Positions 18,396 through 32,207 of a stretch of 64,000 nt of DNA are shown in pieces. How positions within the stretch are numbered: the first letter of the stretch is position 1; the number at the start of each line of letters is the position of its first letter. Position numbers and translations under genes: made by a program. The notes under the pieces are model-generated. The model ran no database searches, was not told the origin of the DNA, and was given only the letters and a program-made list of their open reading frames with translations. This DNA is from a virus: positions 64,001 through 128,000 of IMG/VR virus record IMGVR_UViG_3300028840_005911. One strand, given 5' to 3'.

Positions 18396-18490
18396 GGTGG
18401 ATAGCTTGAGAGTTTGTTGGTGGGTCGATTGGACTAGCGAACGGTTAGATGCTGGTTCGCTGGGAAGAGAGCCTTGTGCTCTCTTTTACC
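18396..18490 (+). ncRNA. (GNNN)n array A plus terminator hairpin
   Basis: G at 8/8 positions 18396-18424, then 11/13 at 18419-18467 after a 1-nt phase slip; hairpin GAAGAGAGC/GCTCTCTT. Confidence 0.65.
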
Positions 18491-18766
18491 TCAGAGCTGC
18501 GCCTTGAGGGTCGGTGAGGGCCGGAAGCCGACGGTCTTGGAGGCCTTGACCTTGATGATCTCGCCGGTCTGCGGATTGCGGCCCTTGCGGGCCTTGCGCT
18601 TGCGCAGATTGAAGACACCGAAGCCGGCGTAGCTGAAGCGGCCTTCCTTCTTCACCGTCTTGGTGATGGTGCTGAAGACGCTGTCCACGATATCGGTCGC
18701 GGCCTTGGTCGTCATCTCGTACCCCGCCGTCTTCTTGATCTGCTCGATGAATTCCTTCTTGGTCAT
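18491..18766 (-). CDS. hup: HU family DNA-binding protein
   Basis: MTKKEFIEQI..., GFGVFNLRKRKARKGRNPQTGEIIKVKASKTVGFRPS. Confidence 0.95.
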   Translation of the reverse strand: MTKKEFIEQIKKTAGYEMTTKAATDIVDSVFSTITKTVKKEGRFSYAGFGVFNLRKRKARKGRNPQTGEIIKVKASKTVGFRPSPTLKAQL

Positions 18767-18942
18767 GTCTGAACTCCTACAAAAGGGTTAAAGAAAACAC
18801 AGGCAGAATAAGCATAGTAGAGACAATAGTCAACAACTTTCGCCAAAATACGGCCATTATTGGAAATTCTGGGTGACAGTTTCGGTACAAGAATACTGAG
18901 GAGGAAATCCGCATTTTAACCAGCCGGGACTGGGAGAAAACC

Positions 18943-19326
18943 ATGAAGAAAGGAGTAGTCAAGATCGTAGAGGCTAAGGAGAAGTTTCCTGGAAAGGTTC
19001 CCGCAGTCGTGTACGCCGCACTGCTGGAACACAAAACAATGGCGGAGAATTTTGACTGGGCCGCTTGGCTCTACAATCCTATTCTTGGCTCGAGGTTCTT
19101 GCTGGACTCTGACGTAAACCGGCAGAACATCCTAAGAAGAACTGAGTACAACCCGTCATTCCACAAGTGGGGATATGTAGACGGGTCATGCGTCATAGTA
19201 CTAGGCGACTCAGAAGACTACGTTCTCACGACACTCGATTCTCTGCTTCCGCATGTAACGGTGCAAACACTGGACATCTGCGAGGAGAGGATGCTCATGA
19301 AACATCTGATGCGGCCGGGAGGCTAG
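18943..19326 (+). CDS. hypothetical phage protein
   Basis: Promoter variant GAAATT-N17-TACAAG at 18863-18891; terminator 19329-19358. Confidence 0.65.
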   Translation: MKKGVVKIVEAKEKFPGKVPAVVYAALLEHKTMAENFDWAAWLYNPILGSRFLLDSDVNRQNILRRTEYNPSFHKWGYVDGSCVIVLGDSEDYVLTTLDSLLPHVTVQTLDICEERMLMKHLMRPGG

Positions 19327-19360
19327 GAATAAAGGAGGCTCCGGCCTCCTTTATTACCTG

Positions 19361-19388
19361 TAAAATACTGGACTTTCTCAGGTATAAG
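19361..19388 (+). promoter_or_regulatory. phage promoter motif for RAMP-like gene
   Basis: TAAAAT-N16-TATAAG followed by SD AAGGAGGAGG. Confidence 0.78.
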
Positions 19389-19435
19389 AAAAATGTGAAG
19401 AGATCATCTTAACCACCACAAGGAGGAGGAATCAC

Positions 19436-20692
19436 ATGAACATCGATCTCAACATGTTCGAGAAGGACGAGAAGACGGGACTCTACATCATCGAGGACCA
19501 GGTAGTCCTCGGTATCATCCTGGTCTACGTCATCCAGAAGCTCGGACAGTGCAACGACAACCTGCTGCGGGATACCCTCCGTGACAAACTGGGCATCTAC
19601 GTACGCAAGTGGAAGACCGTCTTCCGCAACGCCCTCAACGCTCTCAAGAAGCTGGACCTCATCGCCATCAACCAGCTCCCCGGAGAGGGGGACGTACAGG
19701 AAGAGCACTACTCCCTGAAGAACGTGGAGTTCGCCTCCCCGCCGCATCTGGCCCACTTCAAGGACGTTCTTCCCAAACTGCTTGCAGACGGGACGTCCGC
19801 AGCTATCAAGGTGGCTTTCGACTCCGGGGAAGAAGCGGAGCCAGGGGAGACCACCAAGCCCAAGAGGGGAGCAAACATCAAAGAGAGCCACGTCTACTCA
19901 GTCCGGTTCGAGAGTGAGGAGAAGTTCCTTGCTGGTAGGTCAATCTGTCCGACCATGAGGGACGGCCTGGAGAAATCTCCGTACCAACCGAACATCGATG
20001 GCTATATCAAGCAGGAAGAAGAAGAGCCCAGGAAGACCAAGAAAAAGAAGGCGGCCGATAGGGCAGACGCTAAGATCGACCGCTTCTTCGAGCGAGCCAC
20101 TGACGGCGGGATCCTGATCCACGGTGGTATCACCAAGGGCATGTTCTGCTCTGCCATACCGCGCTTGTACGGCCTCGCCCCGGCAACCGCGAGGGACAAC
20201 GGCGGGTACCCGTCGATCATCGTCTACCCGAACAATCACGGTATCCAACTGACCACACTTCCGGTCCAGGCCTCCAACGGCAAGTCAGCCGCACCGCAAA
20301 CCTACGAGACAATCATGCCTGGAGAGGAGATCCTGCTCAGGTTCTGGGCCCCGACCAAAGGGTTCCTGGACGCGGACATCATCGTTGAGTATCTCGAGTT
20401 CATCGGCCTCTTCCCAAAACGCACCCTTTCGCCCGGTCGTGGCACCGAGACTGGGAAGATGAGGATGACTCACTTCGTTGACCATGGCCTTGTTCCGGAG
20501 ATATTCGAGAAGCGCAAGAAGAACAGGAAGAAGCTTCCCATAGATGCATACCTCGACTGGGAGTTCGAAAAGGAGACCGGGGTAACGCTCCAAAAAGTCG
20601 GCGGTGCCCCGAAGACTAAGAAGGCCCGCATGCGGGTCGACGGCAACAAGATGCTCCTCTTCAAGACGAAGGGAGACCAGGCTCAGGCGTAG
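19436..20692 (+). CDS. stand-alone Cas7/RAMP-superfamily protein with N-terminal winged-helix domain
   Basis: RAMP-order motifs: VYSVRFESEEKFLAG; FFERATDGGILIHGGITKGMFCSA; TLPVQASNGKSAAPQTYETIMPGEEILLRF; Gly loop LSPGRGTETGKMRM; residues about 20-95 wHTH-like. Confidence 0.72.
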   Translation: MNIDLNMFEKDEKTGLYIIEDQVVLGIILVYVIQKLGQCNDNLLRDTLRDKLGIYVRKWKTVFRNALNALKKLDLIAINQLPGEGDVQEEHYSLKNVEFASPPHLAHFKDVLPKLLADGTSAAIKVAFDSGEEAEPGETTKPKRGANIKESHVYSVRFESEEKFLAGRSICPTMRDGLEKSPYQPNIDGYIKQEEEEPRKTKKKKAADRADAKIDRFFERATDGGILIHGGITKGMFCSAIPRLYGLAPATARDNGGYPSIIVYPNNHGIQLTTLPVQASNGKSAAPQTYETIMPGEEILLRFWAPTKGFLDADIIVEYLEFIGLFPKRTLSPGRGTETGKMRMTHFVDHGLVPEIFEKRKKNRKKLPIDAYLDWEFEKETGVTLQKVGGAPKTKKARMRVDGNKMLLFKTKGDQAQA

Positions 20693-20757
20693 TTCCTCCC
20701 CCTGGGTGCGCCTGGAGAGAGGGTGGGTCGCGCATCACCCCACCCTCTCTTTAGCCG

Positions 20758-20786
20758 TAAATTTGACGACCCCTTTTGGGTATAAG
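20758..20786 (+). promoter_or_regulatory. phage promoter motif, preceded by terminator 20715-20753
   Basis: TAAATT-N17-TATAAG. Confidence 0.75.
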
Positions 20787-20830
20787 AATACTGGAGAAGG
20801 ACAACCTTATATCCATAGGAGGGGAAAGCC

Positions 20831-30789: not shown

Positions 30790-30795
30790 AGATCT

Positions 30796-31187
30796 ATGGG
30801 AGCGTGTTTCGCTCCTTCGCATTGAGCTGGTCCTGGAGTAGGTAACGGGTAACCGTGTGGCGCGCGACATGTCTACTCCAGGACCGCAAGACATTATCCC
30901 GGCCTTCGGCCGGTTTGATTGTGTTGTGGGTGGAATGTCGGGAGTATCGGACGCTTGAACGAATGTGGGAGAGTAAATCAGACAGGGGAGCAGGTTGATC
31001 GAAGAGAGGCAAGGGCGGTCGCCGGTATGAGTGTTCGCGGGTCTGGTAGCGAGAGGGTACGTTTGTCCGTGGTGCGGAATCATGGGGCGTTTGTCAAAAG
31101 GAAGGTACGAGCGTGAGTGGGAACATGCGTCTGCACGGTGGCCCGAGCGAAAGCTCGAGAAGAGGATACCCCCTATCCTCTTCTTAC
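30796..31187 (+). ncRNA. ncRNA: structured 5' domain, longest (GNNN)n array E, terminator
   Basis: GGTCCTGGAGTAG/CTACTCCAGGACC stem and CCGGCC-TTC-GGCCGG hairpin, then G at 53/62 in-phase positions 30913-31157. Confidence 0.85.
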
Positions 31188-31190
31188 CTG

Positions 31191-31219
31191 TAAAATACAA
31201 CAGCACTGTTGGGTATAAG
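31191..31219 (+). promoter_or_regulatory. phage promoter with palindromic operator in the spacer
   Basis: TAAAAT-ACAACAGCACTGTTGGG-TATAAG. Confidence 0.78.
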
Positions 31220-31263
31220 TATTGTGACAGAGAAATGCACCCATTTTATAGGAGGAACAAACA

Positions 31264-31773
31264 ATGGAGCCCAAGAAGAAACCAAGAAGAAAGTTTAGAA
31301 GCCCGTACAAGTGTTATCGAGAGCTTGCCATCGCAGTGGTCGGGTCCCGTGACGGTAAATACCCGCACAACGTTCGCGGGAAAGACATCAAGAACGCTGT
31401 ACTTGCTGTGATGATGGAGCTCAACCTAAAACTGCGTGTCATTCTCAGGCTCCGATTCGGGATCGGAACCAAGAAGCTGACCCTCAAAGAAGTCGGAGCA
31501 ATATTTGGGGTAGGCGCAGAGCAAATCCGCAGGCTGGAAGCCAGAGGGCTAAGGGTCATGAGAAAGCACTGGCGCATTCTAGTGGACCCCTCGAACGTTC
31601 GACATCTCTGCTACGATGAACCCGACTTGGAAGAGATGATAAAGAGATGCGGAGACATGCCTCGAGCTGTATCCCACCCCGTTCTGCGGAAAACCCACCG
31701 AAGAAAATTCTCGGATGGCACTGAGTCGGTATATGTAGAGTATACCAAGATGGACAGTGACAGATATATCTGA
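31264..31773 (+). CDS. sigma70 region-4 HTH protein
   Basis: LRVILRLRFGIGTKKLTLKEVGAIFGVGAEQIRRLEARGLRVMR. Confidence 0.8.
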   Translation: MEPKKKPRRKFRSPYKCYRELAIAVVGSRDGKYPHNVRGKDIKNAVLAVMMELNLKLRVILRLRFGIGTKKLTLKEVGAIFGVGAEQIRRLEARGLRVMRKHWRILVDPSNVRHLCYDEPDLEEMIKRCGDMPRAVSHPVLRKTHRRKFSDGTESVYVEYTKMDSDRYI

Positions 31774-31807
31774 TTCCAAAAGCACCCACTTTTATAGGAG
31801 GGCAATC

Positions 31808-31957
31808 ATGAGAAACTACGAGAAGTATTACCATCCAGAAGTAGGAGAGATATGTTGGAGGTGGCGTTATCTGCGCCGACCAAGACGTCGTCCACGGAGA
31901 AAGCGCTATTCCCCTTACTGGCTGCTCAGTCTGTACCTGGCAGCTACATGGGATTGA
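31808..31957 (+). CDS. small Arg/Trp-rich protein
   Basis: GGAGGG SD. Confidence 0.5.
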   Translation: MRNYEKYYHPEVGEICWRWRYLRRPRRRPRRKRYSPYWLLSLYLAATWD

Positions 31958-31996
31958 GGGCTGAACAACGCGGAGCTGGCCGCTGAATCCAGCAAT

Positions 31997-32207
31997 GATT
32001 GATCGAGTGTATGGCGGGTGGCTCGGCAGGAAGAGGATGCAAGTTCGGGGTGTCGTGGGTCGGCGAGGACGGGAGTTGGTTGGCAAGGATGTGGGAACGT
32101 TGGAAGGTGCGGAAGTACGTCGTATAGTGTGAAAGGAAGAACGACGGCAGGGTAGCGCGCGGGATGGTGAGGAACAGAGAAAGGGGGCTTCATCCCCTTT
32201 CTCTTAC
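31997..32207 (+). ncRNA. (GNNN)n array G plus terminator hairpin
   Basis: G at 10/10 positions 31997-32033, then 33/35 at 32035-32171 after a 2-nt slip; hairpin GAGAAAGGGG/CCCCTTTCTC-TTAC. Confidence 0.85.

What the first reader, a model, noticed from the sequence alone, without database searches (positions are those of the whole stretch)
18396..32207. Candidate new RNA-guided system: solo Cas7/RAMP-like protein plus seven dispersed (GNNN)n guide-like RNAs with 4-nt punctuation
Seen in sequence: seven non-coding + strand tracts (18396-18467, 25176-25232, 26901-27037, 29610-29698, 30563-30675, 30913-31157, 31997-32171) carry G at every fourth base, 205 of 230 in-phase positions by hand count. 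The three bases in between show no repeat and differ in every tract (off-phase G 28/105 in array B). Every tract is followed immediately by a terminator hairpin, and two have their own promoter and no ORF. The same early region encodes a promoter-led RAMP/Cas7-like gene with no cas1/2/5/6/8 and no CRISPR array. Established: Cas7 filaments read guides in 6-nt steps with one base flipped out; the recently reported phage VIPR systems (recalled, not checked) use a solo RAMP protein and GGY/NN 5-nt-period RNAs. Inference: this is a third geometry, where each protomer grips a G and presents three variable bases, giving programmable DNA or RNA recognition, perhaps against host defence genes or competing phages.
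Basis: partly seen in the sequence, partly recalled or inferred. Interest (0 to 1): 0.97.

Follow-up and report, generated by a model that had tools for sequence, protein, structure and literature searches.

The report
Phage RAMP protein with four-base guide-like repeats
A complete 192-kb uncultured phage encodes a lone CRISPR-type (Cas7-like) RNA-binding protein fused to a DNA-binding domain, plus seven non-coding tracts with G at every fourth base. Relatives of the protein carry the same kind of tract beside the gene, so this looks like a four-base version of the newly described five-base VIPR guide-RNA systems.

Summary
Seven + strand tracts between 18.4 and 32.2 kb have G at every fourth base (184 of 208 in-phase positions). 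Nothing comparable lies elsewhere in the complete 192,446-bp phage genome or on the other strand. Each tract sits just before a unit-end hairpin.

The new evidence is genetic linkage. In 8 of 12 lineages of this protein family, same-strand (GNNN)n arrays lie next to the gene, 15 on the gene strand and 1 on the other. In two near-identical phages a block of units has been swapped while the G register is kept.

All published VIPR repeats are pentanucleotides, and a 2026 survey of periodic arrays lists no 4-nt class.

No target was found under any spacing rule. There are no RNA data. The family shows no sequence-level link to SUSP1-type Vipr.

Verdict: probably a new four-base variant of a VIPR-like RNA-protein system. 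Guide function is inferred, not shown. This scan earlier noted a different 4-nt (CANN) VIPR-like system on other DNA (e1-5325543).

The parts
18396..18474 (+). (GNNN)n array A. It starts 3 nt after the stop of the sigma-region-4 gene 17500-18393 and runs into the unit-end hairpin.
   Evidence: 18 G in 20 units with one 1-nt slip; hairpin 18464-18486
19381..19395 (+). Copy of the recurrent promoter-like motif GGTATAAGAAnnnTG, upstream of the RAMP gene
   Evidence: Exact match; 13 + strand copies at 0-1 mismatch between 16.4 and 31.3 kb, each ahead of a unit
19436..20692 (+). Gene for the 418-aa winged-helix plus Cas7-like RAMP protein (P0001)
20712..20754 (+). Unit-end hairpin after the RAMP gene
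   Evidence: 16-bp stem, -28.3 kcal/mol, z -6.2
25176..25246 (+). Short (GNNN)n array with no ORF, preceded by hairpins and a weak copy of the promoter motif at 25045; a hairpin follows
   Evidence: 12/14 strict, 16/18 by HMM; hairpin -19.5 kcal/mol
26901..27037 (+). (GNNN)n array B, in the 3' untranslated end of the operon that ends at 26881
   Evidence: 31/35 in phase; hairpin 27037-27065
29610..29701 (+). (GNNN)n array C, starting inside the stop codon of ORF 29258-29611
   Evidence: 21/23 in phase; hairpin 29707-29735
30563..30675 (+). (GNNN)n array D, after the small ORFs 30206-30540
   Evidence: 25/29 in phase; hairpin near 30696-30728
30782..31190 (+). Dedicated non-coding unit: promoter motif (30782), structured leader, array E (30909-31157) and unit-end hairpin
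   Evidence: 54/63 in phase, score 31.5; promoter motif with 1 mismatch; leader hairpin 30899-30913; end hairpin z -5.7
31997..32190 (+). (GNNN)n array G, two registers joined by a slip, after ORFs 31264-31957
   Evidence: 10/10 then 36/39; 46/49 by HMM; hairpin 32176-32204

Best explanation
This is a VIPR-like ribonucleoprotein system with a four-base repeat.

Shown:
- The phage's early transcription units carry untranslated (GNNN)n tracts just before their end hairpins, and one unit holds only such a tract.
- A separate early unit encodes a protein made of a PadR-type winged helix and a Cas7-type RAMP domain.
- The gene family and the arrays travel together in many unrelated large phages.

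Inferred:
- RAMP domains line up head to tail on the transcribed array, one protomer per four bases.
- Each protomer holds the fixed G in a pocket formed by the glycine-rich loop and thumb, as Vipr holds GGY and Cas7 flips every sixth base.
- The variable bases are left exposed to pair with a nucleic-acid target.
- The fused winged helix takes the place of the separate DNA-binding Vap proteins of VIPR and points to double-stranded DNA as the target, with silencing by binding.
- The targets lie outside the phage (host or rival elements), because its own complete genome holds none.

How many of the three variable bases are read is open. The base just before each G is the most G+C-rich in 8 of 9 lineages (tied in the ninth) and tracks genome G+C. 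So the code may be two read bases plus one spacer.
For: Periodicity: 184/208 in-phase G, + strand only, confined to window 18.4-32.7 kb of a complete genome.

The tracts have no fold of their own: z -0.9 to +1.35 against genome segments, though tract A scores -2.7 against its own mononucleotide shuffles. This fits a protein-coated strand.

Protein:
- pLDDT 85.6.
- The best viral matches are lone RAMPs of about 200 aa.
- The family motif R-G-[LI]-S-P-A-R-G..G precedes the last strand.

Linkage: same-strand arrays lie beside the homologous gene in these loci:
- L127: 25/28, 22/26, 21/22
- L153: 30/32, 24/32, 31/35
- L155: 20/22, 67/72
- L132: 107/125
- L135: 38/47
- L129: 82/114, 60/83
- L128: 41/60
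- L130: 17/20
That is 15 tracts on the gene strand and 1 on the other; a shuffled L123 gave 0.

Diversification: L132 and L135 differ at 1 of about 220 coding bases aligned. The first 15 versus 21 units of their array are entirely different while the G register is kept, and the next 65 nt are near-identical again, 3 differences.

Oligomer model: three copies of residues 140-390 give ipSAE 0.60 against a best control of 0.02. The runs agree in at least 78% of contacts and partner pLDDT is at least 78. In the calibration 20 of 30 solved homo-pairs and 1 of 23 single chains reached the mark. The middle copy uses two different faces, including the thumb and G-loop. The pass may reflect likeness to solved Cas7 filaments.

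Precedent: Vipr plus GGY/NN vrRNAs form such filaments and silence DNA (papers 10.64898/2026.04.26.720920 and .720927).
Against: No RNA data exist for this phage, so transcription, processing and binding are unshown.

No target was found in its own genome, in 220 kb of related loci, in IMG/VR or in 185,579 species genomes under any spacing rule. Only a few seeds could be tried in the public collections.

Profile comparison with SUSP1-type Vipr finds nothing, so kinship to Vipr beyond the RAMP fold is unproven.

Four lineages show no clear G array near the gene: L001, L125, L126 and L154. L123's is weak (15/20).

Most arrays sit in untranslated ends of mRNAs right before hairpins, which would also suit a cis-regulatory role.

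Variable positions that carry no information would look the same as guide positions.
Confidence: 0.55

Rival explanations
1. The arrays are cis-acting landing pads, not guides. The RAMP protein coats (GNNN)n in the untranslated ends of early mRNAs. By spreading into the purine arm of the next hairpin it controls read-through, mRNA stability or translation, as a timing switch. The variable bases carry no information.
For: Five of the seven arrays lie in 3' untranslated ends directly before the unit-end hairpin. The HMM register runs into the hairpin's 5' arm at 18474, 27052, 31168 and 32190. In L127, L153 and L155 arrays also lie in the 5' leader of the RAMP gene or of the next gene, which would suit autoregulation. 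No target was found.
Against: Unit E is a dedicated promoter-array-hairpin unit with no gene to regulate. Array length varies from 14 to 125 units. A block of 15-21 units was replaced between near-identical phages with the register kept, which is easier to explain if the sequence matters. The fused winged helix and the VIPR precedent point to DNA.
Confidence: 0.25
2. The arrays are decoy RNAs that soak up a host RNA-binding protein, for example a host CRISPR RAMP or another G-specific binder. The phage RAMP gene has an unrelated job.
For: Phage RNA decoys of CRISPR repeats are known (my own knowledge, not checked here). The tracts are unstructured and G-rich.
Against: Arrays lie beside the phage's own RAMP gene in at least 8 lineages and always on its strand. 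No host CRISPR repeat has a 4-nt period.
Confidence: 0.06
3. The periodicity acts at the DNA level (for example a binding track for a DNA-filament protein) or is a by-product of slippage, without function.
For: None specific. A period-4 pattern could in principle be read on single-stranded DNA.
Against: The arrays are strictly strand-specific and co-directional with transcription. They lie between promoters and hairpins, their units are not copies of each other, and the pattern is kept across phages of 54-68% G+C.
Confidence: 0.04

Closest known systems
VIPR systems (Vipr protein plus vrRNA; types I-VII; Escherichia phage SUSP1 type II; bioRxiv 10.64898/2026.04.26.720920 and .720927)
   Same: - A lone viral RAMP protein without other cas genes.
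- Non-coding tandem units with a fixed G-containing part and hypervariable bases, placed upstream and downstream of the gene on its strand.
- A structured 3' end.
- A DNA-binding winged-helix partner.
- Variable parts that differ between close relatives.
   Different: - The unit is 4 nt with one fixed G. All published types are pentanucleotide (YNNGG, NNNGG, YNNNG, NNNNG).
- The protein is 418 aa with the winged helix fused on. Vipr is about 195 aa with a separate Vap.
- There is no profile-level similarity to SUSP1-type Vipr.
- The arrays are dispersed over 14 kb at the ends of several early operons.
- The family was found only in large uncultured phages, in no bacterial or archaeal species genome and in no cultured phage record.
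Cas7 backbone proteins of class 1 CRISPR-Cas (Csm3, Cmr4, Csf2, type VII Cas7)
   Different: No CRISPR array, no Cas1 and no other RAMP in the genome. Period 4 instead of 6. No conserved acidic residue stands out where Csm3 has its catalytic Asp (inspection of the invariant columns; inference).
TRAP and HutP attenuation proteins
   Same: A protein oligomer reads one short fixed element per subunit, (G/U)AG or UAG, separated by free spacers in an mRNA untranslated region near a terminator (my own knowledge).
   Different: Different folds and closed rings of fixed size. Their sites have 11 or 3-6 repeats, not 14-125, and are not hypervariable cassettes.
(CANN)n arrays beside a Cas7/Vipr-like gene in an archaeal element
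   Same: A four-base register next to a lone RAMP gene.
   Different: Two fixed bases (C, usually A) and two free ones there. Here there is one fixed G and three variable bases, and a different protein architecture.

Membership tests
RAMP superfamily (Cas5/6/7-type RRM proteins) | Glycine-rich loop before the last core strand | tested here: met
   S332, P333, R335, G336 nearly invariant and G340 invariant. Family motif RG[LI]SPARG..G lies between helix 313-325 and strand 342-352.
RAMP superfamily (Cas5/6/7-type RRM proteins) | Thumb beta-hairpin | tested here: inconclusive
   The model has a hairpin at 270-278/284-293. It lies in the predicted protomer-protomer interface. I did not inspect coordinates.
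CRISPR-Cas class 1 effector (Cas7 proper) | Association with a CRISPR array and other cas genes | tested here: not met
   No Cas1, no other Pfam RAMP hit, and no repeat of 20 nt or more spaced 45-100 nt in the complete 192-kb genome.
VIPR | Lone RAMP gene in a viral genome flanked by non-coding tandem units that alternate fixed and hypervariable positions | tested here: met
   Window arrays. Arrays beside the homologous gene in 8 of 12 lineages. Block replacement between L132 and L135.
VIPR | Pentanucleotide repeat (GGY/NN or a related 5-nt consensus) | tested here: not met
   The period is 4 in every array here and in the homologous loci. The paper describes pentanucleotide motifs for all seven types.
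VIPR | Vipr protein clade (reached by PSI-BLAST from X1U2U4; branches apart from Cas5/6/7) | tested here: inconclusive
   hhalign of the family profile against SUSP1 Vipr and against 30 of its homologues: probability 0.5%. The Vipr structure (36pp) is not in the fold libraries. No tree was built.
VIPR | vrRNA is expressed and co-purifies with the protein | not testable with these tools
   Only two DNA runs hold this phage.
VIPR | Targets that follow the 1-nt skip rule | tested here: inconclusive
   No match above shuffled controls in local data. No hit for the few seeds scanned in public collections.

The most novel reading that the evidence does not exclude
This would be a separate RNA-guided DNA-recognition code. 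A winged-helix-RAMP fusion polymerises at one protomer per four bases on RNAs with a single fixed G. It reads two or three bases per unit against host or rival-phage DNA. It would be a second geometry beside the 5-nt VIPR and 6-nt Cas7 registers, carried by a protein family with no detectable sequence tie to known Vipr, and used by large uncultured phages from the ends of their early mRNAs.
Probability: 0.4. Interest if true: 0.9.

Novelty: new variant of a known kind. Interest (0 to 1): 0.8.

Why it matters
VIPR was described only in 2026 and every reported form uses five-base units. A four-base form with one fixed base would show that the spacing of RAMP filaments on RNA can change in evolution (4, 5 and 6 nt). 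It would give a second natural non-contiguous code to decipher. It would also offer a single-protein binder, since the DNA-binding domain is already fused, that may be simpler to reprogramme. It adds about 88 protein clusters, all from uncultured phages, to the relatives of CRISPR proteins. Placing guides at the ends of ordinary early mRNAs, rather than in one locus, is a different way to express such RNAs.

Tried and rejected
Target searches, all negative:
- Own genome, all arrays, three bases per unit with 0-3 skipped target bases, best 10-unit windows: no better than shuffles.
- Longest perfect runs against the own genome plus related loci (412 kb): 3-5 units, the same as shuffles.
- Two-base models (positions 1-2 or 2-3; target periods 2, 3 and 5): 4-7 units, within the range of the shuffles, whose maximum was 9.
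- Exact scans of IMG/VR with five seeds: NNx from arrays G, C and L135, NNNx from G, and contiguous NNN from G.
- One NNx seed in 185,579 species genomes.
These few seeds cannot exclude targets.

Other attempts:
- Reading the variable triplets as codons. Likelihood under phage codon tables was inconclusive. G-deleted translations of five arrays hit no Pfam family.
- Scan of IMG/VR for 17 in-phase Gs. It returned simple repeats, and none of those loci encodes the protein family. Because those loci were selected for G periodicity, they could not serve as a clean false-positive control.
- Expression: no RNA holder is listed. Two DNA runs hold identical contigs, so there were no variants to compare.
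- Close relatives of the phage: none in INPHARED by DNA or protein. None in IMG/VR with the single protein. No family member in the species genomes.
- Rfam: no family matches the arrays.
- G001 (the record holding L123), scanned whole for 14 in-phase Gs with 1 mismatch: one site elsewhere, uninformative in a 62% G+C genome.
- L001, L125 and L154 show no period-4 signal near the gene. L126 has only a degenerate G/T-period signal.
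Full report
**Setting.** The window is bases 64001-128000 of a single 192,446-bp virus record. The record has direct terminal repeats and CheckV rates it 100% complete. It occurs in sediment and seawater metagenome runs. G+C is 54-55%. Region 16-32 kb is a run of short + strand units. Each opens with the motif GGTATAAGAAnnnTG: 13 copies at 0-1 mismatch, and 59 matches at up to 2 mismatches in the window against 32 +/- 6 in shuffles. Each unit closes with a 9-16 bp hairpin whose 5' arm is purine-rich and whose 3' arm reads CUCUUCUUAC or similar.

In seven + strand stretches G occupies every fourth base, 184 of 208 units in strict-phase segments. The other three positions are near-uniform and no unit sequence repeats. 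Segment scores are 15-31.5 for the five long tracts. Shuffles of the window gave 0-4 segments at the threshold of 8, and A, C and T gave only marginal segments. A slip-tolerant HMM finds 8 tracts on the + strand of the whole genome, all between window 18.4 and 32.7 kb, and none on the - strand. The last of the eight, 32522-32739, is weak. The tracts are no more structured than random genome segments (z -0.9 to +1.35), although tract A scores z -2.7 against its own mononucleotide shuffles. No Rfam family matches them. Five tracts lie between the last stop codon of an operon and its end hairpin. Tract E (30909-31157) has its own promoter motif, a hairpin leader and no ORF. The short tract at 25176 is also free of ORFs.

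**The protein.** ORF 19436-20692 has its own promoter motif, a ribosome-binding site and an end hairpin. It hits nothing in Pfam or PHROGs. An all-against-all HMMER search finds 88 cluster representatives, 64 of which I aligned. E291, P306 and G340 are invariant and S332-P333-x-R335-G336 is nearly so. AlphaFold2 on that alignment gives pLDDT 85.6.
- Foldseek against the PDB returns Csm3, Cmr4, Cas7-11 and type VII Cas7 at E about 1e-6.
- A profile search of PDB sequences independently gives weak PadR and Csm5 hits.
- Among predicted viral structures the best matches are lone RAMPs of about 200 aa.
- The genome has no Cas1, no other Pfam RAMP hit and no CRISPR-like array.

So the protein is a winged helix fused to a solitary Cas7-type RAMP.

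**Linkage between the protein and the arrays.** I fetched loci that encode family members 25-47% identical to each other, from IMG/VR, metagenome contigs and assemblies. I ran the same HMM on both strands.

| Locus | Gene | Arrays on the gene strand (G / units) |
|---|---|---|
| L127 | 408-1622 | 224-335 (25/28); 1622-1725 (22/26); 1830-1917 (21/22) |
| L153 | 3989-5080 | 829-956 (30/32); 3856-3983 (24/32); 5114-5253 (31/35) |
| L155 | 125-1141 | 4-91 (20/22); 1146-1433 (67/72) |
| L132 | 9956-11122 | 11092-11594 (107/125) |
| L135 | ends 11086 | 11056 to the contig end (38/47) |
| L129 | ends 11329 | 11505-11964 (82/114); 12122-12457 (60/83) |
| L128 | starts 3494 | 3105-3344 (41/60) |
| L130 | starts 2107 | 528-607 (17/20) |
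| L123 | 10007-11113 | 11447-11526 (15/20, weak) |

L001, L125, L126 and L154 show no clear G array in the DNA available. In total there are 15 tracts on the gene strand and one on the opposite strand. A shuffled L123 gave none, and the phage's own - strand gave none. The window's arrays reach 12 kb from the gene, so short contigs can miss them.

**Sign of diversification.** L132 and L135 differ at one of about 220 coding bases aligned. Directly after the stop codon, 15 units in one locus are replaced by 21 unrelated units in the other, with G kept in register. After that the arrays are near-identical again for about 65 nt (3 differences). This is cassette exchange, not drift.

**Oligomer model.** Three copies of residues 140-390 are predicted to pack head to tail. 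ipSAE is 0.60 against a best control of 0.02. The runs agree in at least 78% of contacts and partner pLDDT is at least 78. In the calibration 20 of 30 solved homo-pairs and 1 of 23 single chains reached the mark. The middle copy uses two different faces, one of them containing the thumb hairpin (271-295), helix 315-328 and the G-loop (337-343). Solved Cas7 filaments may have taught the model this arrangement, so the result shows likeness and not proof.

**Comparison with what is published.**
- The VIPR preprints describe lone viral RAMPs (Vipr, about 195 aa) that polymerise on vrRNAs made of 9-16 YNNGG units. They hold GGY and present NN to DNA, with one target base skipped, and silence rival elements. 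Accessory Vap proteins are often winged-helix DNA binders.
- All seven types are described as pentanucleotide. The alternatives listed are NNNGG, YNNNG and NNNNG.
- A survey of 5.1 million clusters of intergenic sequence found periodic arrays at 60-79, 18 and 5 nt, and a few at 10, 8 and 7 nt. It found none at 4 nt.
- Text searches for vrRNA together with 4-nt, GNNN or tetranucleotide terms found nothing else.
- I located SUSP1's own locus: GGYNN arrays at 27.6-29.2 kb, and Vipr = ALH47069.1, the sequence of PDB entry 36pp.
- Profile-profile comparison of this family with SUSP1 Vipr, and with 30 of its homologues, finds nothing. Sequence gives no tie beyond the shared fold, which is usual among RAMPs.

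**What the variable bases tell.** Positions 1 and 2 after the G are C-poor. Position 3, the base before the next G, is the most G+C-rich in 8 of 9 lineages (tied in L130) and rises with genome G+C, from 0.52 in the window at 54% to 0.84 in L132 at 63%. Both position 2 and position 3 correlate with locus G+C (Spearman 0.74 and 0.78, p 0.02 and 0.01). Either the triplets mirror codons or position 3 is the least constrained. A codon-usage likelihood test was inconclusive, and G-deleted translations hit no Pfam family. I therefore leave open whether two or three bases per unit are read. A note from this scan on other DNA describes a CANN form with two free bases (e1-5325543, unchecked).

**Targets.** None was found in the phage's own complete genome, in the related loci, or, for the handful of exact seeds allowed, in IMG/VR and the species genomes. 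The host is unknown and no RNA data exist. Function therefore rests on analogy and on the genetics above.

**Weighing.** I take it as very likely that the arrays and the RAMP protein work together. Guide function has the VIPR precedent, the fused DNA-binding domain, a dedicated non-coding unit and cassette exchange in its favour. The main rival is that the protein coats these untranslated ends to control read-through or mRNA fate. That rival fits the constant position just before hairpins and the leader arrays in relatives. I put guide function at 0.55 and the cis-regulatory reading at 0.25.

**Verdict.** The finding is a new four-base, fusion-protein variant of a VIPR-like system.

Noticed in passing
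window 29768-30122: A separate unit with its own promoter motif (29768) and end hairpin holds no credible ORF. It holds a 333-nt RNA with significant structure (MFE -139.5 kcal/mol, z -3.6) and no Rfam match.
   Followed up: partly
window 23115-23998: A weak Y-RNA-like (YrlA) match lies at 23122-23235 (37 bits, below the cut-off of 69). A tRNA-like element that Rfam calls (50.8 bits) but ARAGORN does not lies at 23921-23998. One contig of run X1 joins 23161 to 23925, skipping 763 bases.
   Followed up: no
window 17500-18393 and 31264-31773: Two phage proteins carry sigma-70 region 4 (the first also an HTH_3 domain). Both are followed by a GNNN array. They may recognise the recurrent GGTATAAGAAnnnTG motif.
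   Followed up: no
L126 12005, 13487, 14310, 14635: In one relative the non-coding stretches after the RAMP gene are G/T-rich with only a degenerate period-4 signal. Each ends in a hairpin whose loop is the same 20-nt sequence (GTAACTTCAGGCGTGAGGGC, or GAAGGC in one copy), which may be a conserved 3' handle.
   Followed up: partly
window 32522-32739: The HMM calls a further weak period-4 G stretch (36/54) just beyond array G, in a region of repeated CAACAGG-type motifs. It may be a decayed array.
   Followed up: no
window 18491-18766 (- strand): A lone - strand ORF in the early + strand region reads as an HU/IHF-type DNA-binding protein (91 aa) by eye. I did not search it.
   Followed up: no
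L127 1910 onward; L151 9291-9764: A NUDIX hydrolase gene lies next to the RAMP gene in two relatives. In L127 an array forms its 5' leader.
   Followed up: no
window 22161-22952 and 28551-29261: Strong matches to DUF7873 (8e-68) and DUF5131 (5e-68; phrog_2045) lie in the same early region.
   Followed up: no
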